Virus record (IMG/VR): IMGVR_UViG_3300028591_000078
Span: 96,001 to 160,000 of that record
Source of the DNA: a virus
Taxonomy: Duplodnaviria > Caudoviricetes
Length of the DNA stretch: 64,000 nucleotides
Reading direction: 5' to 3' (one strand)
Part shown: piece by piece, positions 2,093 through 61,208 of the stretch
How the letters are laid out: each line of letters begins with the position of its first letter
Position numbering within the stretch: the first letter of the stretch is position 1
Notes under the pieces: generated by a model
What the model was told of the DNA's origin: nothing
Databases searched by the model: none
The model's input: the letters and a program-made list of their open reading frames with translations, nothing else
Position numbers and translations under genes: made by a program

Positions 2093-2241
2093 GATATGTG
2101 AATCCTCCTTAATTGGTATTGAATTTATTCAATTATATGAATGTTCTATACTATTGGAGTATATTAATTTATATGTTCTGAGAAACCTTATAATAATCCA
2201 CCAGGATAAATCATAAATAAACGAGAAATGGAGTGTATAAG

Positions 2242-4356
2242 ATGGCTACTAAAGGATTATCAGATATGATGGTAATTCAAAAATTTAAAGATGAAATTCG
2301 ACCTGTACTAAGGTTGACATTTCCACATTTATCAGATTATGAGATAGATATGGCTGTGGACTATTCTTGTATTAAGAGAATGAAGAATGGCCAAGCATAT
2401 ATAGACAATAATTATACCAATGTAAAGGTTGATACTACAGTTCTACAGCTTACTGAGTATATTCTGAGTAGAGAACCTATCATAACTACTCAAGGTGTAC
2501 TATTTAAGAAGCATGGAACTGTACCTAATCCATTATATAGTCTTATACAGGAATTCATAGATAAACGAATTGCTTATAAGAAAGAGATGTTTAAGTATCC
2601 TAAAGGTAGTGAGATGTTTGCAAAGTATAACCTGCTACAGCTCTTAGCAAAGCTGGATGCAAATGCTACCTATGGAGCCATGGGTATGTATAGTTGCGTA
2701 CTGTATAATATCTATGTAGCATCAGCTATAACTGCACAAGGCAGATCTGGAATTTCTGCAGCAATATTGCTGATGGAAGGATTCCTAAGTAATAATGTAA
2801 AATTCGGTTCTTTGAATGAGATAGTAGTATTCATCAAGAATATAATCACCGAGCCTAGAAGATACAAAGACTCAGATATACTTGATGATGATATTACTAG
2901 AGAAGAATGTTTTTATAAGATCATGACTACATGTGGATTTGACTATATTCCTACAGAGAAAGATATGCAGATAGTATGGGATATGCTAGGTCAAGTTACA
3001 CAAGAAGATCTGAATAGATTATTCTATAAGAATAATCTGTATAACTTCATGGACAATAGTAGTATGCGTAAAGCAGTAATCTATATCCTTCAGAAGTTGG
3101 ATAGGCCTTTCATGGATCCTAATAAACCTCCGAAGTGTATATCTGTAGAACTTGAAGAGTTCTATCAGATACTATTTGAGTATGTATATTATGGATATCA
3201 GTATATAGATAGACTCGATCGTACAGAGAATATGATAAGAAATGTATCTATTATAACAGATACAGATTCTACTATCATATCTCTTGATGCATGGTATAGA
3301 TATACTTTAGCATTCACATATGATGTGCCGATGGAGATTAAGAAGATAGTAATTAATCCATTCATTCATATTGATGTAGATGAGTGGGGAGATCCTAAGA
3401 AACCTTATCAGCCATTCGAGCATATTGAACCTGAATACGATTATGACTTTTATACAGATGAAGTAATAGAACGAGAGAAGTTCATCAATCCTATGAAGAT
3501 ATGTCCTCAGGAAGGATTGAAGTATTCTATCATAAATATCATGTCTCATATAATAGGAAAGCTTTGTGTAGATTATATGAGAAGATATGCAATCAATTCT
3601 CATTCTGTAGATAAGAATAGACCTGATTGCCTATTGATATTGAAGAATGAATTCTACTTCGAACGAGTTCTGAATACAGATAATAAGAAGAATTATGCTG
3701 ATATACAGAGACTTCAGGAAGGTAATATAGTACCAGATGAGAATGCTCTTGATGTTAAGGGTCTTCCGATGACTAAATCTACTCTTCCTAAGAAGACTGT
3801 AAAAGCTCTGAAGAGAGTACTTAGAGAAAAGATACTTGCTCCAGAGGTTATAGATCAGATAGATGTATTGAAAGCTATCAAGATAGTAGAGAAGGATATC
3901 TATGAATCTCTGCTTAATGGTAGTAAGGAATACTACATGCCAGTTAAGATTAAGTCTACAGCAGGTTATGAGAATCCTATGAGAATATATGGATATAAAG
4001 CAGCATATGCTTATAACGCTCTTAGACTTGATGGTATGGAGGCAATAGATCTTGATTCTAGAAACAGTGTAGATATTATGAAAGTAGATATTACTACTAA
4101 GAATATCGAGCATCTAGCTCAAGATAATCCTATACTATATGAAAAGCTTACCAAACTCTTATCAGAACCTGAGTTTGATGGTGAACTTAGCATGATAGCA
4201 ATACCACTAAATGAACCAGTACCAGAATGGGCAAAGCAATTTATAGACTTTGCTACTATCATAAATAATAATGTTTCTAACTTCCCTCTTGAAAGTATAG
4301 GGCTGTTTAGAAACAATAAGTCTAATGTTAATGAGAGTAATATTCTGAAGATATAA
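2242..4356 (+). CDS. Family B DNA polymerase, catalytic subunit (phiKZ/AR9-type, split)
   Basis: Motif B KLDANATYG, ITAQGR, motif C IITDTDS, KKNYA, DVKGL; no exonuclease or motif A seen. ORF track starts at GTG 2233; ATG 2242 fits the RBS better. Confidence 0.9.
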   Translation: MATKGLSDMMVIQKFKDEIRPVLRLTFPHLSDYEIDMAVDYSCIKRMKNGQAYIDNNYTNVKVDTTVLQLTEYILSREPIITTQGVLFKKHGTVPNPLYSLIQEFIDKRIAYKKEMFKYPKGSEMFAKYNLLQLLAKLDANATYGAMGMYSCVLYNIYVASAITAQGRSGISAAILLMEGFLSNNVKFGSLNEIVVFIKNIITEPRRYKDSDILDDDITREECFYKIMTTCGFDYIPTEKDMQIVWDMLGQVTQEDLNRLFYKNNLYNFMDNSSMRKAVIYILQKLDRPFMDPNKPPKCISVELEEFYQILFEYVYYGYQYIDRLDRTENMIRNVSIITDTDSTIISLDAWYRYTLAFTYDVPMEIKKIVINPFIHIDVDEWGDPKKPYQPFEHIEPEYDYDFYTDEVIEREKFINPMKICPQEGLKYSIINIMSHIIGKLCVDYMRRYAINSHSVDKNRPDCLLILKNEFYFERVLNTDNKKNYADIQRLQEGNIVPDENALDVKGLPMTKSTLPKKTVKALKRVLREKILAPEVIDQIDVLKAIKIVEKDIYESLLNGSKEYYMPVKIKSTAGYENPMRIYGYKAAYAYNALRLDGMEAIDLDSRNSVDIMKVDITTKNIEHLAQDNPILYEKLTKLLSEPEFDGELSMIAIPLNEPVPEWAKQFIDFATIINNNVSNFPLESIGLFRNNKSNVNESNILKI

Positions 4357-6353: not shown

Positions 6354-6439
6354 ATTAGTTTCCTCCTTATAAATGCAATATATACTATATAGTTTCCGGT
6401 ATAGTATTTTTATAAAAACCCATACTAAGCCAATATCTG

Positions 6440-6451
6440 AACATAAGAGTA
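6440..6451 (+). promoter_or_regulatory. Late (nvRNAP) promoter AACA-N6-TA, representative copy
   Basis: Same spacing at 10361, 13509, 33376, 34619, 41007, 55036, 56198, 56315, 58867 (+) and 15530, 17885, 40961, 43819, 59824 (-); matches the AR9 late consensus as recalled. Confidence 0.8.
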
Positions 6452-6480
6452 AATCTATCACTCTGAAAGGAGGAAGAATA

Positions 6481-8601
6481 ATGGTTGTAGAACAGAATAC
6501 TAGACAGCAAGTCATGTATTATGAAATGTCTACAAATAACAAATCGTTCTTAGACTGCTACTACTATCTAAAGTCTAAGGGAATCAAGAACTGTAAATTC
6601 CATTTGATTATATTAGATAAGGATCTTATAGGAGTAGATCCTCATGATCCTAGACTTAATGTAAGAATGAAGCAGAAGATTCTGGTTGAATGTCAGAGAA
6701 ACTACTTCTATTTCATTCGAAACGTTGTTAGGATACCATCTCAAGGTGGTCCGCCTGATAAATATAGAATGAACAGAGGCATGCTTGCCATGAACTTCTG
6801 TTTATGCTTAAATCTTGATATATACTTAGAGCTTCCTCGTCAGCAAGGTAAGACTATAGGATCAGTTGTATGGTATCTATGGTTGTATAACTTTGGTTCA
6901 CGAGACTCAATGATGATATTCCTAAACAAGAAGATGGAAACTGCTAAGGAAAACTTGCAGCGTCTTAAATCTATACGTGAACTCTTACCTTCTTATCTAC
7001 AAATGATTCAGCCATTTGACTCTTCTGGCAAGAAGATTAGGATTACAGATAACGTAGAATCTATGAAGCATCCTATAAACAACAATGTTATTAAGGTTCT
7101 GCCGTCTGCTCGTAACAAAGTAAATGCATCTAACCTCTTACGAGGTAAAACTATACCATTACTCTGGGGTGATGAGTGGGCATTCGTTCCATTCAATGAC
7201 ATTATCTGGATTAATGGTGCTCCTGCGATGCGTACAGCTAAGGATAATGCTAAGAGACATGGTGCTCCATATGGTGCATTACTCTCTTCTACTCCTGGAT
7301 ATCTTACTCAGCCTGAAGGTCAGGAGGCTTACGATATTATTAAGTCTTCTACTCCGTTTAATGAGGCTTGGTATGACTTTACTCCTCAGCAGCTTGAGTC
7401 TTTGCTTTCTGCAAATGTAAACTCCAGCTTCGTATATATCAGATACACATATCAGCAGCTTGGTCTTCCTGAGTCTTGGTTCAAAGATCAGTGTATTGAT
7501 ATGCGTATGAAGTGGGCTGATATTAGACGTGAAATTCTTCTTGAATGGTCTAGCGATGTCGAGAACTCACCTTTTACAAAAGAGCAGCTTGATATTGTAC
7601 AGCAGCTCGTTAAACAGCCTATTAAGCAGGTATATCTCCTTGGAAAGTATCTGTTTAATGTGTATGAAGAGATAGACTTCAGAAATCCTCCTATAATAGG
7701 GGTCGATGTATCTGGAGGTTATAATAGAGACTCTTCAGCAATTACTTGTATAGACTCTCTGACTACTAAAGTTATGGCAGACTTTAACTGCAACTATATA
7801 TCTATAGTAGATCTTACAAGAGTTATATATGAGCTCGTTACTAAGTATATGCCAAATGCTGTAGTTAATATAGAGCGTAATGGTGGTTTCGGAGCCTCTG
7901 TATTAGCTAAGCTTATTCACTCTTCAATTAAGAAGAATCTCTATTATGAGATTAAAGATAAGGTAGTTGAAGAGAGAACAGATGGTGTACGTATTATCAG
8001 AAAGACTCAGAAGACTAAAGTCTATGGTACTGATAATACAAAGCATGTAAGAGAAGATCTCATGGAGATCTTAAGAGAGAGAATGGAGTACCATAAGGAT
8101 AAGTTTGTATCTCCTATAATCTTCAGAGAGCTTACTACACTTGAAGTTAAACGTAATGGTAGAATAGAGCATTCTTCTACAGAGCATGATGATGCTGTAT
8201 TCTCTATGCTTATGGCTCTTTATGTATGGTATTATGGTCAGAATCTTAGAGAGAACTGGAATCTCATCAAGAAAGGCCTTACTACTGATGAAGCTCTTGA
8301 AGAGCCTGTATTTGGCTTAGAAGAAAAGTATGCTGATATAGTAGAAGAATTCGAAGCTATAGATAATCCTATGGTTAAAGAGCAGATAGATGCTCTTAAT
8401 AAAGCCAAAGGTAAGCTATATCATGAATTTGTCAAGGAGCAGATAGCTCTTGATAATGAAGCTATGCAAAATATACTTGCTACAAAGCTTGGTAGGCAGG
8501 CCTATGCACAGCAATTCCATGTTCCTGCAGAGAATTTGGAGAATATGCAGTATACTATTCCTAATAGTGTATTTGCTAACTTCTATAGTGATAATGATTA
8601 A
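6481..8601 (+). CDS. terL: Terminase large subunit
   Basis: Walker A LPRQQGKT, Walker B WGDEWAF, SSTPG, nuclease GVDVSGG and HDDAV; start ATG 6481 after GAAAGGAGG; late promoter at 6440-6451. Confidence 0.92.
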   Translation: MVVEQNTRQQVMYYEMSTNNKSFLDCYYYLKSKGIKNCKFHLIILDKDLIGVDPHDPRLNVRMKQKILVECQRNYFYFIRNVVRIPSQGGPPDKYRMNRGMLAMNFCLCLNLDIYLELPRQQGKTIGSVVWYLWLYNFGSRDSMMIFLNKKMETAKENLQRLKSIRELLPSYLQMIQPFDSSGKKIRITDNVESMKHPINNNVIKVLPSARNKVNASNLLRGKTIPLLWGDEWAFVPFNDIIWINGAPAMRTAKDNAKRHGAPYGALLSSTPGYLTQPEGQEAYDIIKSSTPFNEAWYDFTPQQLESLLSANVNSSFVYIRYTYQQLGLPESWFKDQCIDMRMKWADIRREILLEWSSDVENSPFTKEQLDIVQQLVKQPIKQVYLLGKYLFNVYEEIDFRNPPIIGVDVSGGYNRDSSAITCIDSLTTKVMADFNCNYISIVDLTRVIYELVTKYMPNAVVNIERNGGFGASVLAKLIHSSIKKNLYYEIKDKVVEERTDGVRIIRKTQKTKVYGTDNTKHVREDLMEILRERMEYHKDKFVSPIIFRELTTLEVKRNGRIEHSSTEHDDAVFSMLMALYVWYYGQNLRENWNLIKKGLTTDEALEEPVFGLEEKYADIVEEFEAIDNPMVKEQIDALNKAKGKLYHEFVKEQIALDNEAMQNILATKLGRQAYAQQFHVPAENLENMQYTIPNSVFANFYSDND

Positions 8602-8732: not shown

Positions 8733-10298
8733 ATGGCTAAGAAGAACATTAACAATCCTGAGAACGAGAACAACAAGAAGAATATCAACAATGAGGAAAA
8801 TGAGCAGCTTCATTTCGACGAAACTGCTGCAGAGTCTGAGACTACAAAAGCGGAAGTAACCAAAGTCAGCAAAAAGGGGGACAAAGCTGACAAGCCTAAG
8901 AAGGTAAAGAAGATAAAGGCAACTAAGAAACTTGACGATACCAGCTTGACTGCTGCTATACAGAAAAAGGTTGAAGAGGAGGTCAACCCTGAGGATATCA
9001 AGGGCAATCCGCTCTTCAATGTTCCCAAGAAGGTAACTGACTGGGAGCAGGTAGTGAAGGATATCAATATCACCACTGATATCGAAATGAGAGCTCTGAT
9101 AAAGCAGTTCTATAATGTATATCAGAGCAGACGTATTCAGGTCCAGAACCAGAACAGATCAATCATGCAGGGCTTCAGTAACAATGAAGCTGCTGACATA
9201 ATTGATGATAATGATCTGGAAGAAATGACAGATCTTATCAAGTTCCCTGCCCTTGCTGTGCTGGCGGACATGCAGCTGGAGCAGGAAAAGGCACTGAAGG
9301 GTATTATCGAAAGATATGTTCTGTCAAAGCCTATGGGACAGTACCTCACTTCTATAGTAGGTGTAGGTCCGCTGCTTGCAGGATCTCTCATGGGATATCT
9401 CAAGCCTACACTCTACTCCGGCGAATGGATCTCCTATGCAGGTCTCAATAACAATAATGATCCGTGGATTAAGGGTGATACAGTAAGTTACCTCTTCGAC
9501 AAATATAAGGTTCCGAAGATAGTAACCCCTGAGATCATAGGAGCAATATCTGCAGAGACAGGAAGATCTGTAAACAGAATAATCGAAGGTGCAAGCACCC
9601 TTGATGCTGAAGGAAACTCTGTGATCCTTAAAAAAGATCTTGAGAGTTATCTCAAGAAGCCTAACCATAACAGAGAGCTCAAGAAGGTTATCTGGAAGCT
9701 CGGCGAGTCTTTGAATAAGATCAGAAACAAGCCCAATTCTCTGTATGGTAAACTCCTTGCTGAAAGACAGGCTGAAGAAAATACTAACAATGAAAAGCAT
9801 TACTACATCCAGGAGGCAATTATATCTCTTGGATGGAGACCGGCTGATAAGCCTAAGGGATGGGTTTACAAGAAGAATCCTAACCTCACCCTTGCCGAAG
9901 AAGAAGAGCTTCTTAAGCAGGTTCAGTATGATATTGATAACAAGATATTTACTGATTTCAACAAGATCTCTCCTTCGGCAGAGACATTCGAGCTCTATTA
10001 CAATGGATACCTCAATAAGGCTCACATCCTTAACAGAGCAAAAAGGTGGGCTGCAAAGATCTTCCTGAGCCATGTGCATGATGCCATGTACATCGATGAA
10101 AAGGGTGAGCTTCCGCCTGTTCCTTATGTGTTCGCACATGGTGGACACTGCAGATACATCGAACCTGAAGTTCCGTTCAGCAAGATCTGGAGCTGGGTTG
10201 ACGATGAAGAGCTCAAGAGAAGAGCTCTTGAAGCATCTGCAAATACTACAGATAAGAGAGTCGCTAAGAGTGACAATCCTACAACTTGCTGGATGTAA
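8733..10298 (+). CDS. IS110-related Nop-domain protein, TasA-like (TIGR-associated), no nuclease domain
   Basis: Coiled coil MRALIKQFYNVYQSRRIQVQNQ; helix-hairpin LTSIVGVGPLLAGSLMGYL...WISYAGL; HNRELKKVIWKLGESL; C-terminal HILNRAKRWAAKIFLSHV...PVPYVFAHGGH; no N-terminal RuvC/DEDD or HNH motif seen. Confidence 0.75.
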   Translation: MAKKNINNPENENNKKNINNEENEQLHFDETAAESETTKAEVTKVSKKGDKADKPKKVKKIKATKKLDDTSLTAAIQKKVEEEVNPEDIKGNPLFNVPKKVTDWEQVVKDINITTDIEMRALIKQFYNVYQSRRIQVQNQNRSIMQGFSNNEAADIIDDNDLEEMTDLIKFPALAVLADMQLEQEKALKGIIERYVLSKPMGQYLTSIVGVGPLLAGSLMGYLKPTLYSGEWISYAGLNNNNDPWIKGDTVSYLFDKYKVPKIVTPEIIGAISAETGRSVNRIIEGASTLDAEGNSVILKKDLESYLKKPNHNRELKKVIWKLGESLNKIRNKPNSLYGKLLAERQAEENTNNEKHYYIQEAIISLGWRPADKPKGWVYKKNPNLTLAEEEELLKQVQYDIDNKIFTDFNKISPSAETFELYYNGYLNKAHILNRAKRWAAKIFLSHVHDAMYIDEKGELPPVPYVFAHGGHCRYIEPEVPFSKIWSWVDDEELKRRALEASANTTDKRVAKSDNPTTCWM

Positions 10299-11959: not shown

Positions 11960-12090
11960 GAGAAGGCATCTAGCCTTCTCTCTTTTTATGCAAAAATACT
12001 ATTTTTCAAGCATATATTATCAAAGTGTAAAGGAGTTAGATTAAAGTCTAACAATAAGAAAATGTTCAAAACCATAAGGAGGTATAAATT

Positions 12091-16550: not shown

Positions 16551-16661
16551 ATGAAATTTAAAATGCGAGCACTTAACGCATGGGATTTAGCCATCCTACC
16601 TTTTATTAATAAGTTTGAATCCAATCTAGCAAAAGTAAAAGATTTCAATTATATATTATAA
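16551..16661 (+). CDS. Small ORF, 36 aa
   Basis: MKFKMRALNAWDLAILPFINKFESNLAKVKDFNYIL after AAGAGGA; below the ORF-track cutoff. Confidence 0.4.
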   Translation: MKFKMRALNAWDLAILPFINKFESNLAKVKDFNYIL

Positions 16662-16663
16662 TA
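16643..16663 (+). promoter_or_regulatory. Strong early (virion RNAP) promoter TTTCAATTATATATTATAATA
   Basis: Identical 21-mer at 16643, 37657 and 61117, each upstream of small genes. Confidence 0.75.
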
Positions 16664-16701
16664 ATGAGTAAGAAAAGAATGATAGTAAAGGAGTTGATAT
16701 T

Positions 16702-29791: not shown

Positions 29792-30853
29792 ATGACTCAC
29801 AGAGATATATATGAATTCATAAAGCAGAATATACCATGTAAATCTGCTGCTGGAGGTAGGCAGTTAATAACTATCTGTCCTTTTCCAGATTGTAATGATA
29901 AATCAGGACATATGTATATCGGACCATTTGATAACTCAGATTCTCCGATAAGATATAATTGTTTTAAATGTAATCATAGTGGGTTAGTAACCCCAAAGTT
30001 TTTCAGTATGTATGGTATATATGCTGATGACTTTAATAAAGCTATTACAGAGTTTATAGCAAATGCTCCTAAGTATATTAATAATAAGACCAACTCTATA
30101 AGATCTTTCAATATAGTGAATGATTATATAAGTTTTGGTAATATAACAGATCAGAAGCTAGCTTATATTAATAATAGACTAGGTTCTAATCTGACTTATC
30201 AAGACTGTATAGATTTAAAGATAGTATTGAATCTATATGATCTCCTTGCTAGGAATAATATAGACAGACTTACCAGAGATAAGTCTGTTGTAGATATACT
30301 GAATAATCACTTTGTGGGATTCTTATCATCTGATAACAATAATATCAATATGAGAAATATCAGAGATCCTGGAGTATTGCCAGAGTTTGTAGATGAGAGA
30401 TATATAAATTACAGAATCTTTAATACTAGAGACTCTTGTAAATATTATATGATTCCTACATCTATAGATCTTACCAGTCCTTTGCCAATAGATGTATTCA
30501 TTGCTGAAGGTGTATTTGATATTCTAGGAGTCTATTTGAATATTACTAATAGGAATAGATTCAGAACCTTATATACTAATATCAGTGGCAAAGGATATAC
30601 TAATCTGATAGAATATTTATTATGTAATCTTGGATTAAGTAATATTAATCTACACATCTGTCCTGATGCAGATGTAACAGATTATGAGATTTCAGAGATT
30701 GCACAGTTCATCAGACCCTTCAATTTTAATGTATATATACACCGTAATATTTATAAAGACTCTAAGACAGGAAAATATGAAAAGGATTTTGGTGTTCCAC
30801 CTTCCCGTATCATAGATAATTGCATTCAAATACAAAAAAGAAACGAGTACTAG
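29792..30853 (+). CDS. DNA primase
   Basis: Zn finger CPFPDC..H...CFKC; TOPRIM IAEGVFD and DAD; C-terminal KDFG. Confidence 0.85.
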   Translation: MTHRDIYEFIKQNIPCKSAAGGRQLITICPFPDCNDKSGHMYIGPFDNSDSPIRYNCFKCNHSGLVTPKFFSMYGIYADDFNKAITEFIANAPKYINNKTNSIRSFNIVNDYISFGNITDQKLAYINNRLGSNLTYQDCIDLKIVLNLYDLLARNNIDRLTRDKSVVDILNNHFVGFLSSDNNNINMRNIRDPGVLPEFVDERYINYRIFNTRDSCKYYMIPTSIDLTSPLPIDVFIAEGVFDILGVYLNITNRNRFRTLYTNISGKGYTNLIEYLLCNLGLSNINLHICPDADVTDYEISEIAQFIRPFNFNVYIHRNIYKDSKTGKYEKDFGVPPSRIIDNCIQIQKRNEY

Positions 30854-30868
30854 ACTCGTTTCTTTTTT
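30834..30868. terminator. Bidirectional intrinsic terminator between the primase and the array
   Basis: AAAAAAGAAACGAGT-ACTAG-ACTCGTTTCTTTTTT. Confidence 0.8.
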
Positions 30869-33331
30869 CATTACCGATCGATGATATTTACTTTTCAGTG
30901 ATTCATTATTCGTTGATGATATTTAGTGATATCTGATTCATTACAAGTCGATGATATTTAAAGTTCAATGATTCATTATACCAAGGTGATAATTATCCTC
31001 TGGTGATTCATTATTCTTATCTGATATCTAGTTCTCAGCGATTCAATAAATCTTTTTGATATTTGCATTTCGGTGATTCAATATGCTTATCTGATCTTTA
31101 CTTTTCAGTAATTCATTGTGCCACTGTGATAATTATTCATCGATGATTCGATATTCAAACCTAATAATTAGGTTTCAATGATTCATTGAAATGATATGAT
31201 ATTTAATGATGTTTAACTCATTACCGATAGATGATATTTATAAGTCGGTGATTCATTATTTGTTCATGATATTTAAGGGTGGGTAATTCATTATACAGAG
31301 GTGATACTTATCCTCTAGGTGATTCAATGCTCAAGGCGCTGATAATTGGGTCGCGATGATTCATTATGTGATCATGATATTTATTAATATTTAACTCATT
31401 AGAAGTCAATGATACTTAGATGTACAATGATTCATTAAACAACTGTGATATTTAATGATCTATAATTCATTACTGAGTAATGATACTTATATTTCCAGTG
31501 ATTAATTTATTTTCATTGATACTTAGCACTGGGTGATTCTTTAATTTCTGTTGATACATAGTTTTAAATGATTCGATACTGTACGATGATACTTAGCAAG
31601 CTGCGATTCATTACGCAATACTAATACTTATTTCGTTATAATTCATTAAAATCCTCTGATATTTACCAATTCTTGATTCCATAAAACCTGAAGATAATTA
31701 TTAACCATTGGGTCATTAAAGGAAAATGATACATAGCTTGAATTAATTCAATACTGGATGATGATACTTACCCGAGAATAATTCATTATTATTCATTGAT
31801 ACTCTCATAACTATAATTCAACAGAATCGGTTGGTATATAATTATAATTAATTCAATACATTGCCTTGATATTTAGTAATAGATGATTCCATATTTTGTA
31901 GTGAATACTTAGTCATTTTTTATTCAGTAATATGCTGTGATAATTACTTAACCATAATTCATTAGAATCAACTGATACTTAGATAGAAATAATTCAATAA
32001 CAACCCTTGATATTCTAACAGAATCGATTCGTTATATAAATTTGATATATATCATGTTTTAACTCTTTAACCTAATATGATAAATTCGCTCATTCTAATT
32101 CATTATTAGGACTTGATACTTAGCTTGAATTAATTCATTAAGGTGGTCTGATACCTTTGACGAAATAAATCAATAAGTCTCGTTGATATTTAATTTTTCA
32201 TGGTTCATTAAGACTATATGATATTTATATTAATTTAATTCAATAGATCTGGATGATACTTGCTTCTGTATAATTCATTAGCTTGCTTTGATATTTATAT
32301 TATTTTGATTTAATAATCCTTGATGATATTTAGATGTCGATGGTTCATTATCCCTTTATGATATTTATTCGGTACTGGTTCATTGCGCCGATTTGATATT
32401 TACATCTAACTAATTCATTATGATGATGTGATATTTAATAATATGCAATTCAATATTCGCGTTTGATATTTATTATGTCCTGGTTCAGTAAAATAGTATG
32501 ATGCTTATTACTAGATAATTCTTTAAATTCCATTGATATATAATTTGACATGATTCATTAAATTTCAATGATACTTAGACGAAGCTAATTCATTACACTG
32601 CGGTGATATATAGTTTGTTTTGATTCATTAAACTTCAATGATATTTAGTAAGTCTTAATTCATTACGATTAAGTGATACATTGAGAGACCTAATTCAATA
32701 TGGTTTGATGATACTTTCAGATTTATAATTCCTTAAATCCACATGATATTTATTTACTGCAGATTCTTTAAGTTCTATTGATACGTAGTTTGCTGTGATT
32801 CATTAATGGTCAATGATACTTAGTTAAATTTAATTCTTTATATTCCACTGATACTTATTTTAAGATGATTCTTTAAAGTATCTTGATACTTATTGAGGTT
32901 TAATTCGTTAAGACTCATTGATACTTATTAAGCAATAATTTAATACTCCTGGATGATGCTTAGGATTTGATTGGTTCATTAACTTTTAATGATATTTAAT
33001 TCGATTTGATTCTTTAAATTCTCTTGATACATAGTTTGATATGATTCATTATAATTATTTGATACTTATCGGAGTATAATTCAATAGCTATATCTGATAC
33101 TTAGTACGATTTGATTCTATAGTGCACAAATGATACTTAGCCATGTTTAATTCATTAAAGCTCGATGATAATTACATATTCATGATTCATTATTTAACTT
33201 TGACATTTAAGACCACTTAACTCATTACAACTCGATGATACTTAATAGATAATAATTCATTATATCATTTTGATATTTATTGTCGTTTTGATTCGTTATT
33301 TGACCTTTGATACTTTGAACTTCTTAACTCA
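30864..33331 (-). repeat. Dual-repeat tandem interspaced array (TIGR-like guide-RNA array), 70 units of ~35 nt
   Basis: Plus strand: T(G/A)ATTCATTA-N8-TGATA(T/C)TTA-N8, period 35 nt (a few 36-37), counted across 70 periods; spacers variable; no ORF in the track; flanked by a minus-strand early promoter and a terminator. Confidence 0.9.
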
Positions 33332-33336
33332 CTCTA

Positions 33337-33346
33337 ATAATATATG
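33337..33346 (-). promoter_or_regulatory. Early-type promoter (CATATATTAT) pointing into the array
   Basis: Same 10-mer as at 12011-12020; lies immediately before the first repeat on the minus strand. Confidence 0.65.
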
Positions 33347-33413
33347 ACCAAAAAAAGCAACTTTTTCACAAGGTCAACATATCTATAATATAAAACTTGT
33401 GAGGAGGTTTAGT

Positions 33414-34631
33414 ATGGGTAAATTTGTCAATAAAACTTATACTAATACTGTCAATAATTTGGTAGATAGCCAAATTAAGAAGTATGATAATGCTAATTAT
33501 GTCTTTAATGACAAAGCCCCTTATATTGTAGACTTCTATAATCCTAATAATGCTACTACTTTAGCGGAAGGATCTAGACTTAGTTTTGAATCTATAGGAC
33601 CTAATAGCCCTGTTAAATACTCATATATCAAAGACGCAGTAATATACATCTCTGGAGGTAGAATAGAGTTTAACCTTGAAATCGGAGAGTTTGGCACAGA
33701 AGCTTCTGGTGTAGAAGGTGAGGCTTATATACTTCCTAATACGTTTAAACCTATGCCAGGTGCATTCTTTGTATTCAATCATGCTAGTAAAGACTATCTA
33801 TTTATAGTAACTGGTGTTGATATGGATACTATGGAGAATGGAAACAACTGGTATAAGATGCAGTATGCATTATACTATATAGGAAAAGAGACTTATGATA
33901 AACTCAAGAAACAAGTTACAGAGAATTACCATATGATCTCTGACAATATAGGAACAGAGTTTAAGTCTGTAATCAGACAGACTGACTATGATCTTATAAA
34001 CAAAGTAGAACCCTTACTGGATGATATAAGAACATTCTACAACTCGATGTTTTTCAAAGAGTCTCTCCAGACATATGTATTCTATACAGAAGACAATAAA
34101 TATTTCTATGATCCGTATACAATAGAATTTATGTCTAGAACTGGCATAATGAACGATTCTAATCATTATATCTATATAACTCAAGCATTACATCTTCCTA
34201 CTACATTCCCTATCGAATATGATAGAAGCTTCTGGAAGTGTTTTGAAACCAGAAATTGGGAGAAGCTTCCTACTAATAATGCATTCGGTAGATATATAGA
34301 GGATCCGAATTCATTGTTTGTAACCAGACTCGAAGATTACTATTATGCTATCTATACTCCTGATCTGTGGTTCAACTGCTGGCAGCCTCTTGATGAGAAG
34401 GTTATAGGAAATATACAGAATAGACTCTACTATCCTTTTGATGATCCTAAGGCTATATATAATATACTTACAGATTACTTTAGAAATCCCGAGTCTATAA
34501 TCTCTGCAGAGAATCTCAAGGCTATAGATGATCTTGATATGATTCCTACTAGAGACCTCTTTTATCTTATACCATTGATTATATTCTGTATGGAAAGTGC
34601 TATAAAATCAATGCTTCTAACATATAAGTAA
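33414..34631 (+). CDS. Putative virion structural protein
   Basis: Late promoter at 33376-33387, RBS GAGGAGG, ATG 33414. Confidence 0.65.
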   Translation: MGKFVNKTYTNTVNNLVDSQIKKYDNANYVFNDKAPYIVDFYNPNNATTLAEGSRLSFESIGPNSPVKYSYIKDAVIYISGGRIEFNLEIGEFGTEASGVEGEAYILPNTFKPMPGAFFVFNHASKDYLFIVTGVDMDTMENGNNWYKMQYALYYIGKETYDKLKKQVTENYHMISDNIGTEFKSVIRQTDYDLINKVEPLLDDIRTFYNSMFFKESLQTYVFYTEDNKYFYDPYTIEFMSRTGIMNDSNHYIYITQALHLPTTFPIEYDRSFWKCFETRNWEKLPTNNAFGRYIEDPNSLFVTRLEDYYYAIYTPDLWFNCWQPLDEKVIGNIQNRLYYPFDDPKAIYNILTDYFRNPESIISAENLKAIDDLDMIPTRDLFYLIPLIIFCMESAIKSMLLTYK

Positions 34632-37601: not shown

Positions 37602-37656
37602 ATTAGCCTCCTTGGATAATTAGTATTACTTATATGTGGAAATTTGGCAAATTTGA

Positions 37657-37677
37657 TTTCAATTATATATTATAATA
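37657..37677 (+). promoter_or_regulatory. Strong early promoter (copy 2)
   Basis: TTTCAATTATATATTATAATA. Confidence 0.75.
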
Positions 37678-37756
37678 TTGAAAAGCAAAAAATATCCACA
37701 TGATCCTGCATGATCATGTGGATACTTCAATCAGCTTCGGAAGGAAGTGATTTAAG

Positions 37757-61057: not shown

Positions 61058-61116
61058 TTATATCATCTCCTTAATACTAAGTTGACCTGATTATAAGGTA
61101 TCGTAAAAGTAAAAAG

Positions 61117-61137
61117 TTTCAATTATATATTATAATA
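61117..61137 (+). promoter_or_regulatory. Strong early promoter (copy 3)
   Basis: TTTCAATTATATATTATAATA. Confidence 0.75.
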
Positions 61138-61208
61138 GTGAATAGAGATATTACTGTGCATATTCTCTATGATACTCATCAGCAAAATCTTCATCAAAAG
61201 GAGGTGAT

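What the first reader, a model, noticed from the sequence alone, without database searches (positions are those of the whole stretch)
30864..33331. 70-unit dual-repeat guide-like array: divergent TIGR-type RNA array with 8-nt spacers
Seen: 2.47 kb with no ORF and a near-strict 35-nt period. Two different conserved repeats alternate (plus strand T(G/A)ATTCATTA and TGATA(T/C)TTA), separated by about 140 variable spacers, mostly 8 nt. An early promoter (33337-33346, minus) and a bidirectional terminator (30834-30868) bracket it, so it should be transcribed as UAAUGAAU(C/U)A-N8-UAA(G/A)UAUCA-N8. Known: this edge-repeat/spacer A/loop-repeat/spacer B layout is that of TIGR arrays, which have ~36-nt units, 9-nt spacers and box C/D-like UG...CCA ends. 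Inference: an AT-shifted variant (UA...UCA ends, 8-nt spacers, very long, not adjacent to its effector) that is processed into ~35-nt dual-spacer guides.
Basis: partly seen in the sequence, partly recalled or inferred. Interest (0 to 1): 0.95.

Follow-up and report, generated by a model that had tools for sequence, protein, structure and literature searches.

The report
Giant remote TIGR guide array in phage
This 2.5-kb stretch is a real 70-unit TIGR guide-RNA array in a 238-kb rumen jumbo phage, one of two that serve a nuclease-free TasA protein encoded 20 kb away. It belongs to an RNA-guided DNA-binding family described in 2025, but it is unusually large and lies unusually far from its protein gene.

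Summary

- **Array.** Window 30864-33334 holds 70 units. Read on the minus strand, each unit is a 10-nt edge repeat, an 8-nt spacer, a 9-nt loop repeat and a second 8-nt spacer. Spacer columns carry almost no information, and 138 of the 140 spacers are distinct.
- **Protein.** The protein at 8733-10298 is a Tas-family coiled-coil plus Nop protein with no nuclease domain, so it is TasA-like. Sequence, predicted fold and a conserved processing dyad all agree.
- **Relatives.** 63 of 80 phage loci that encode distant relatives of this protein carry 34-39-nt arrays, mostly beside the gene. The closest one has nearly the same two repeats on the tas strand. This fixes the RNA strand and ties the protein to this repeat type.
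- **Second array.** About 50 more units lie 12.5 kb before the window, giving about 120 guides in all.
- **Conservation and turnover.** Three related phages keep an array in the same slot with different spacers. A 98%-identical strain shares only 39 units.
- **Not shown.** There is no evidence for transcription or processing, and no targets were found.

The scan has already met TIGR-TasA systems in at least six other genomes. This is a new member of a known kind.

The parts
30864..33334 (-). TIGR dual-repeat array 2. It has 70 units of edge repeat UAAUGAAU(C/U)A, 8-nt spacer A, loop repeat UAA(G/A)UAUCA and 8-nt spacer B. It ends in a 3'-truncated edge repeat (TAATGAA) that runs into the terminator.
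   Evidence: Homologous arrays occupy the same slot in L173, L174 and L176.
33335..33367 (-). Leader and promoter of the array. It is a variant of the phage's conserved 44-nt promoter, with the TATATTAT box at 33337-33344. The transcribed start region is fused to the first, degenerate edge repeat.
   Evidence: PWM rank 22 of 476,644. The same leader is present in L173.
30834..30868 (.). Bidirectional intrinsic terminator: A-tract, 15-bp hairpin, T-tract. It ends both the primase gene (plus strand) and the array transcript (minus strand).
   Evidence: It is conserved in L173 and L174.
8733..10298 (+). tasA-like gene (521 aa). Residues 1-111 are a charged, disordered extension and residues 112-485 form the coiled coil plus Nop domain. 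There are insertions at about 248-310 and 360-415. Y465/H472 is a candidate tigRNA-processing dyad. No RuvC or HNH domain is present.

Best explanation
The stretch is a dual-repeat TIGR (tandem interspaced guide RNA) array. It is the larger of two in this 238-kb jumbo phage from ruminant gut metagenomes.

**Proposed mechanism.**
1. The array is transcribed from the minus strand. Transcription starts at a phage-type promoter at its right end and stops at the hairpin terminator shared with the primase gene.
2. The precursor is bound by a dimer of the TasA-like protein encoded at 8733-10298. It is cut inside each 10-nt edge repeat, probably by the protein's own Tyr465/His472 dyad.
3. This would give about 70 different 35-nt tigRNAs from this array, and about 50 more from the second array.
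4. In each ribonucleoprotein, spacer A (8 nt) pairs with one DNA strand and spacer B (8 nt) pairs with the other strand of an adjacent site, reading 16 bp in all.
5. The protein has no nuclease domain, so the likely outcome is binding without cutting. That would block transcription or replication of host or competing mobile-element DNA.

**Shown here:** the array anatomy, Tas-family membership of the protein, the match between protein clade and repeat type, conservation of the array slot in related phages, and fast spacer turnover.

**Inferred:** transcription, processing, dimer binding, DNA targeting and the biological targets.
For: **Array architecture and information profile.**

**Protein.**
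- The only PDB sequence hit of biological relevance (E = 5e-4) is TaTasR, entry 9MTY. PMC12045711 confirms that 9MTY is the TasR RNP.
- A family profile gives TaTasR E = 1e-20, SpTasH E = 5e-7 and IS621 E = 3e-3.
- For the AlphaFold model (pLDDT 72), the ten best Foldseek hits are all Tas chains.
- VIA-align gives Z = 16.4 to TasH residues 66-309. It gives Z = 14.9 to TasR residues 112-322, with rmsd 2.2 A over 192 residues. Both alignments cover the coiled coil plus Nop domain and leave out the nuclease domains. IS110 recombinases follow at Z about 10.8.
- Y465 and H472 are nearly invariant in the family. They have the same 7-residue spacing as the catalytic Y289/H296 of SpTasH, and the same offset from the end of the structural alignment.

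**Cognate link and strand.**
- 63 of 80 viral loci encoding relatives carry 34-39-nt arrays, mostly adjacent to tas.
- Read in the tas orientation, the closest locus (L093) has AAATGAATCA-N8-AAAATATCA. That is one base per repeat away from the window's minus-strand repeats.
- Edge and loop repeats covary across loci.

**Promoter and terminator.**

**Conservation.**
- Relatives with 98, 64 and 51% primase identity keep a minus-strand array in the same slot, with the same or similar repeats and unrelated spacers.
- More distant relatives (41-43% identity) have no array there.

**Function of nuclease-free TasA.** It acts as an RNA-guided repressor, according to bioRxiv 10.64898/2026.09.09.750476, section 12.
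Against: - **No RNA evidence.** The one metatranscriptome that holds this phage gave two short contigs on flanking genes and none on the array. That run is too thin to count either way.
- **Non-canonical motifs.** The canonical box motifs UG...CCA are replaced by UA...UCA.
- **Distance.** The array is not next to its tas gene, which is the usual arrangement.
- **No targets found.** Composite 16-bp sites in both geometries are not enriched over shuffled spacer pairings. This holds for the phage's own genome, for the sister strain's guides against this genome, and for 95 kb of related phage DNA.
- **Host unknown.** MAG bins that hold relatives disagree with one another.
Confidence: 0.85

Rival explanations
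1. The repeats act at the DNA level as iterons. On this reading the 140 phased TGAT...TTA boxes bind a phage protein for replication, partition, packaging or genome organisation, and the 8-nt 'spacers' are only linkers.
For: The two boxes resemble each other and alternate at 17-18 bp. Both arrays sit at junctions between replication genes and virion genes. In units shared between strains, spacer columns evolve at about the rate of the flanking gene: 5.3% against 4.4%.
Against: A Tas-family RNA-binding protein is encoded in the genome. Its closest relatives sit beside arrays with nearly identical repeats, co-oriented with tas. Each array is bracketed by a promoter and a terminator on one strand. 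Each also starts and ends with the same repeat type, as TIGR arrays do. Iteron arrays do not usually hold about 240 unique linkers of fixed length.
Confidence: 0.04
2. The array is transcribed and bound by the TasA-like protein, but the ribonucleoprotein does not target DNA for repression. It might instead act on RNA, serve as a decoy or sponge, or recruit another enzyme such as the helicase encoded next to tas.
For: No DNA target was found. The protein has a 111-residue extension and two insertions of unknown role. A helicase gene follows tas here and in a 42%-identical relative. The related box C/D RNPs act on RNA (PMC12045711).
Against: All Tas proteins tested so far, including nuclease-free TasA, bind double-stranded DNA through both spacers. 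The synteny with the helicase spans a whole conserved replication block, so it is weak evidence for a functional link.
Confidence: 0.08
3. The array is a functionless, recombination-prone tandem repeat that persists by drift.
For: Unit turnover between strains is very fast and includes duplications. Array 1 and the relatives L174 and L176 contain degenerate stretches.
Against: Repeats diverge about half as fast as spacers: 2.3% against 5.3%. The promoter, terminator and slot are kept across relatives down to 51% primase identity. The tas gene is intact in the relatives.
Confidence: 0.03

Closest known systems
Dual-repeat TIGR-TasA systems (for example FpTIGR of Flavonifractor plautii and MbTasA; Faure et al. 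2025, PMC12045711; Xu et al. 2026, bioRxiv 10.64898/2026.09.09.750476)
   Same: - Two alternating short repeats with two fixed-length spacers per unit.
- A nuclease-free coiled-coil plus Nop protein.
- An array that starts and ends with edge repeats and is followed by a terminator.
- A conserved Y/H dyad in the C-terminal loop.
- Carriage by a phage.
   Different: - There are 70 and about 50 units, against a usual 5-15 (the catalogue mean is about 16 per array).
- Both arrays lie about 21 kb from tas, each with its own phage-type promoter.
- Repeat ends are UA...UCA rather than UG...CCA.
- The protein is 521 aa, with a 111-residue charged extension and two insertions.
SpTIGR-TasH of Salicola phage CGphi29 (PDB 9W03, 9W04, 21KL; PMC13421893)
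   Same: It is the best structural match (Z = 16.4 over the coiled coil plus Nop domain). It has 8-nt spacers, giving 16 variable nucleotides per guide. Its Y289/H296 processing dyad is matched in spacing and position by Y465/H472. It is also phage-borne.
   Different: SpTasH has an N-terminal HNH nuclease and cuts DNA, whereas this protein has no nuclease domain. The SpTIGR array is adjacent to its gene.
TaTIGR-TasR (Thermoproteota archaeon; PDB 9MTY)
   Same: It is the best sequence match (profile E = 1e-20). 23% of residues are identical over 192 aligned positions at rmsd 2.2 A. It shares the C-terminal HGGH..YI.P motif.
   Different: TasR carries an active RuvC domain. Its system has 9-nt spacers, 36-nt units and UG...CCA boxes.
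IS110-family recombinases with bridge RNA (IS621, ISCro4) and box C/D snoRNP Nop5 / Prp31
   Same: They share the Nop-type RNA-binding fold (Z about 10.8 for IS110 proteins and 6.3 for Prp31).
   Different: This protein has no DEDD/RuvC or Tnp catalytic domain. There are no IS ends, no bridge RNA and no fibrillarin partner. These proteins score clearly below the Tas proteins.

Membership tests
TIGR array (dual-repeat type) | Two distinct alternating 8-12-nt repeats, separated by short spacers of fixed length and variable sequence | tested here: met
   The repeats are 10 and 9 nt. 130 of 140 spacers are 8 nt, and spacer columns carry at most 0.13 bit.
TIGR array (dual-repeat type) | Edge and loop repeats share their start and end motifs (box D / box C), and these covary between the two repeats | tested here: met
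   Both repeats start UAA and end AUCA or UAUCA. Across related loci the edge and loop repeats change together, as GAG..CCA, AAA..TCA or TAA..TCA.
TIGR array (dual-repeat type) | Canonical UG (box D) and CCA (box C) letters | tested here: not met
   The repeats read UA...UCA, and a few edge variants end in CCA. PMC12045711 section 8 states that these motifs may diverge as long as they covary, so this is not disqualifying.
TIGR array (dual-repeat type) | The array begins and ends with (truncated) edge repeats and is followed by an intrinsic terminator | tested here: met
TIGR-Tas system | A Tas protein (coiled coil plus Nop domain) encoded with the array | tested here: met
   The gene is in the same genome, 20.6 kb away. 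Profile E = 1e-20 to TasR, and Z = 16.4 and 14.9 to TasH and TasR.
TIGR-Tas system | The array lies directly upstream or downstream of tas (typical but not obligatory) | tested here: not met
   tas ends at 10298 and the array starts at 30864. The second array lies about 21 kb on the other side of tas.
TIGR-Tas system | The array is transcribed and processed into unit-length tigRNAs in a Tas-dependent way | tested here: inconclusive
   The only RNA run holding the phage gave no contig on the array and almost none elsewhere. This needs small-RNA sequencing.
TIGR-Tas system | Tandem-spacer recognition of both strands of a DNA target | not testable with these tools
   The in-silico target searches were negative, and the host genome is unknown.
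TasA subtype | No HNH or RuvC nuclease domain | tested here: met
   There is no Pfam hit. Residues 1-70 have pLDDT below 50. The structural matches exclude the nuclease parts of TasH and TasR.
Dual-repeat-type Tas | A Y/H processing dyad on the C-terminal loop of the Nop domain | tested here: met
   Y465/H472 is nearly invariant. Its spacing and offset match SpTasH Y289/H296. Catalysis itself was not tested.
Stem-loop TIGR array | Palindromic stems flanking each spacer pair, or complementarity between spacers A and B | tested here: not met
   Complementarity between A and B equals that of shuffled pairings.

The most novel reading that the evidence does not exclude
In this jumbo-phage lineage, TIGR-TasA may be a fixed, core-module device rather than a small accessory cassette. 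About 120 guides would be expressed from phage-specific promoters to silence or reorganise host or rival DNA during takeover. The guide repertoire would be renewed by recombination among co-circulating strains. Some of those events have breakpoints in the loop repeats and would re-pair A and B spacers into new 16-bp specificities. That would be a diversification route open only to dual-spacer arrays, and a partial answer to how TIGR arrays expand without adaptation genes.
Probability: 0.2. Interest if true: 0.75.

Novelty: new member of a known kind. Interest (0 to 1): 0.5.

Why it matters
TIGR-Tas systems were described in 2025. Two questions are still open: what their natural targets are, and how their arrays gain and lose spacers (PMC12045711, discussion).

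This locus bears on both.

- **Detection.** Very large arrays can sit tens of kilobases from tas. Surveys that centre on tas and scan a few kilobases around it will undercount arrays like these.
- **Array dynamics.** The locus offers a natural series of related phages with the array in one fixed slot. Two strains with 95.6% identical primase DNA share only 39 of about 70 units, and some units look like chimeras with breakpoints in the loop repeat. This gives direct material for studying array dynamics.
- **Target hunting.** The same series can be used to look for targets in rumen metagenomes.

It does not change what is known about the mechanism.

Tried and rejected
- **RNA evidence.** One sheep-gut metatranscriptome (X20) was laid on the stretch. 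It gave only two short contigs on flanking genes and nothing on the array. This is uninformative.
- **Self-targets.** Composite sites A+rc(B) and rc(B)+A were searched with 0-2 mismatches in the 238-kb genome. There were no perfect matches, and counts equalled shuffled pairings: 1 and 5 one-mismatch hits against about 1.9 expected.
- **Sister-strain and relative targets.** The sister strain's guides against this genome, and this phage's guides against 95 kb of related phage DNA, showed no enrichment.
- **Spacer complementarity.** There is no A/B complementarity, whether across the loop repeat or across the edge repeat.
- **Spacer sharing.** Sharing of spacers between the two arrays is at chance level.
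- **Pfam Nop model.** PF01798 finds nothing in the genome, so the standard model is too distant from Tas proteins.
- **Rfam.** No family matches in the window.
- **Exact repeat pattern in IMG/VR.** Only single chance hits were found.
- **Primase as a single query in IMG/VR.** It found no relatives.
- **Megablast of the region against GenBank phages.** No match.
- **Host assignment.** MAGs holding primase relatives belong to Succinivibrionaceae, Clostridia, Coprovivens and Treponemataceae, which disagree with one another. The NCBI bin name Pseudobutyrivibrio for one relative is an unverified lead.
- **Whole-record search of the 239.8-kb relative.** That record is not held.
- **Simple terminator scanner.** It missed the A/T-flanked hairpin.

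Full report
**Observation.** The stretch contains no ORF of 60 aa or more on either strand. It is strongly periodic: self-similarity is 0.54 at lag 35, 0.51 at lag 70 and 0.47 at lag 105, and Tandem Repeats Finder reports period 35/70 rows across it. A dynamic-programming parse on the minus strand gives 70 units: 60 of 35 nt, 9 of 36 nt and 1 of 37 nt. Each unit is a 10-nt repeat (TAATGAAT(C/T)A), a spacer, a 9-nt repeat (TAA(G/A)TATCA) and a second spacer. 130 of the 140 spacers are 8 nt long, with 68 distinct A spacers and 70 distinct B spacers. Repeat columns carry 0.65-2.3 bits and spacer columns at most 0.13 bit. The array spans 30864-33334.

**Genome context.** The window is bases 96001-160000 of a 238,365-bp IMG/VR virus record with 34.7% G+C, estimated to be 97% complete. 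It is a jumbo phage. It has multisubunit RNA polymerase genes, a DNA polymerase B split into two genes, a primase and a helicase. Near-identical DNA occurs in sheep and cattle gut metagenomes from several studies. The array lies between the primase gene (29792-30853, plus strand) and a virion protein gene (33399-34631, plus strand).

**The protein.** The 521-aa product of 8733-10298 has no Pfam hit.
- Its only PDB sequence match of biological relevance is 9MTY chain A (E = 5e-4). The TIGR-Tas paper identifies 9MTY as the TasR ribonucleoprotein.
- Only 14 homologues were found in the large protein collection. A profile built from them matches TaTasR at E = 1e-20, SpTasH at 5e-7 and IS621 at 3e-3.
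- An AlphaFold model has mean pLDDT 72, with residues 1-70 disordered. Its ten best Foldseek hits are all Tas chains.
- VIA-align gives Z = 16.4 to TasH residues 66-309, and Z = 14.9 to TasR residues 112-322 (rmsd 2.2 A over 192 residues). IS110-type recombinases follow at about 10.8 and Prp31 at 6.3.
- The aligned parts are the coiled coil and the Nop domain. The HNH and RuvC parts of the two references have no counterpart here. The protein is therefore TasA-like, with a 111-residue charged N-terminal extension and two insertions.
- SpTasH processes its own precursor through Y289 and H296 (PMC13421893), and this dyad is reported as conserved in dual-repeat systems. The window protein has Y465 and H472, which are nearly invariant in its family. 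They have the same 7-residue spacing and the same offset from the end of the structural alignment.

**Link between protein and array, and the RNA strand.** A search of IMG/VR with the family alignment found 279 contigs encoding relatives. Of the best 80 loci, 63 carry arrays of period 34-39 nt, mostly directly beside the gene. Read in the orientation of tas, their repeats form a series:
- GAGCGAGCCA / GAGAGAACCA
- GAGTGAACCA / GAGAGTACCA
- AAAAGATTCA / AATATATCA
- AAATGAATCA / AAAATATCA, in the closest relative L093 (27% identity), with 8-nt spacers

The L093 repeats differ from the window's minus-strand repeats by one base each. Three things follow. The RNA is the minus strand of the window. 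The window protein belongs to the clade that uses this repeat type. Edge and loop repeats covary across loci, which is what a symmetric dimer reading both repeats requires (PMC12045711, section 8).

**Transcription signals.** The genome holds 16 copies of a 44-nt promoter built around TATATTAT. Against a matrix made from them, the site abutting this array on the minus strand ranks 22nd of 476,644 positions. The equivalent site at the second array ranks 32nd. The other end of the array runs from a truncated 10-nt repeat into a perfect 15-bp hairpin (dG -18.2 kcal/mol, z = -4.3) flanked by A and T tracts. Both arrays start and end with the 10-nt repeat, so that repeat is the edge repeat and the 9-nt one is the loop repeat. 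This matches the published description of TIGR arrays. The promoter's transcribed start (AATAGTGAATAA) resembles the edge repeat.

**A second array.** A genome-wide scan found a second array at genome positions 81,713-83,493, which is 12.5 kb before the window. It has about 50 units of the same repeats on the same strand, with a few irregular units. It too lies between a replication gene (the polymerase exonuclease part) and a virion protein gene. The tas gene lies between the two arrays, about 21 kb from each. Spacers are not shared between the arrays beyond chance. The phage therefore encodes about 120 different guides.

**Relatives.** Primase homologues led to three related phages.
- L173 (98% protein identity) has a 73-unit array in the same slot, on the minus strand, with the same leader and terminator.
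- L174 (64%) has about 20 units of the same repeats.
- L176 (51%) has about 50 units with TAATGAATCA / TATGT(A/G)TCA. Its spacers are unrelated to the window's.
- Its scaffold is 60,890 bp. That equals the longest contig recorded for the TasA homologue P0005, so it may be the same scaffold, but this was not checked.
- Two more distant relatives (41-43% identity) have no array after the primase gene. This fits the far narrower distribution of the Tas protein, with 14 homologues against 356 for the primase.

**Turnover.** A unit-by-unit alignment of the window array with L173 gives 39 collinear shared units, 20 of them identical. There are 31 window-only and 34 L173-only units, in blocks at many internal sites and at both ends.
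- L173 has three extra units next to the leader.
- Some units share spacer A but not B, or the reverse. Window unit 26 looks like spacer A of L173 unit 29 joined to spacer B of L173 unit 31. That implies a 70-nt change with breakpoints in the loop repeats.
- In shared units, repeats differ at 2.3% of positions and spacers at 5.3%, while the primase gene differs at 4.4%.
- A third strain, assembled from another study, shows whole-unit changes: a 62-nt segment replaced by 25 nt, a 34-nt gain, and a 70-nt duplication carrying a new 8-mer. It differs by 0.9% in the array core and by about 3.7% in the pieces that include the flanking genes, a pattern that suggests mosaic ancestry.
- Change is therefore not confined to one end, and it looks driven by recombination.

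**What was not found.** No RNA evidence could be obtained. Composite 16-bp sites in both possible geometries are not enriched over shuffled pairings in the phage genome, in the sister strain comparison, or in 95 kb of relatives. Spacers A and B are not complementary, so this is not a stem-loop array. The host could not be assigned.

**Comparison and verdict.** The locus meets the structural definition of a dual-repeat TIGR-TasA system. 8-nt spacers are already known from the Salicola phage system. Nuclease-free TasA has been shown to act as an RNA-guided repressor. The unusual points are:
- the number of units, 70 and about 50, against a usual 5-15 and a catalogue mean near 16;
- the 21-kb separation of both arrays from tas;
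- the AT-shifted box letters;
- the extended protein.

This scan has already followed up TIGR-TasA systems in at least six other genomes, including one with about 73 guides and one with satellite units 20 kb from tas. This is a well-supported new member of a known kind. It is useful mainly as material for the open questions of targets and array dynamics.

Noticed in passing
G000 81,713-83,493 (12.5 kb before window start; locus L183:4714-6494): A second TIGR array of about 50 units. It has the same repeats and the same strand as the array in the window. It sits between the polymerase exonuclease gene block and a virion protein gene, and it contains several irregular or half units.
   Followed up: yes
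window 11990-12033, 16629-16672, 37643-37686 and 61103-61146 on the plus strand; 12 further copies elsewhere in G000: A conserved 44-nt phage promoter occurs 16 times in the genome. Its consensus is GCAAAAnTAAAAGATTTCAATTA-TATATTAT-AATAGTGA(A/G)TA. The transcribed start resembles the TIGR edge repeat. The temporal class of this promoter is unknown.
   Followed up: partly
window 2233-4356 (+) and L183:2125-4062 (+): The family B DNA polymerase appears to be split into two genes about 17 kb apart. One is an N-terminal/exonuclease-type protein of 645 aa. The other is a 707-aa protein that matches the C-terminal part of the 'divergent PolB' Pfam family.
   Followed up: no
window 6373-8601 (+): The 742-aa protein just upstream of tas has a terminase-large-subunit-like ATPase region (residues 47-252, PHROG E = 1e-50), although it sits inside the replication gene block. 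It is syntenic in the 42%-identical relative.
   Followed up: no
window 31293-31428 and 32534-32595 (strain in run X3): A strain from another study differs by whole-unit changes in the array. Its array core is only 0.9% divergent, against about 3.7% in the pieces that include the flanking genes. This suggests mosaic recombination.
   Followed up: partly
L184, L185 (relatives with 41-43% primase identity): More distant jumbo-phage relatives have no array after the primase gene. In L185 the next gene, which may be the virion-gene homologue, follows after 39 bp. The array slot is therefore specific to a sub-lineage.
   Followed up: partly
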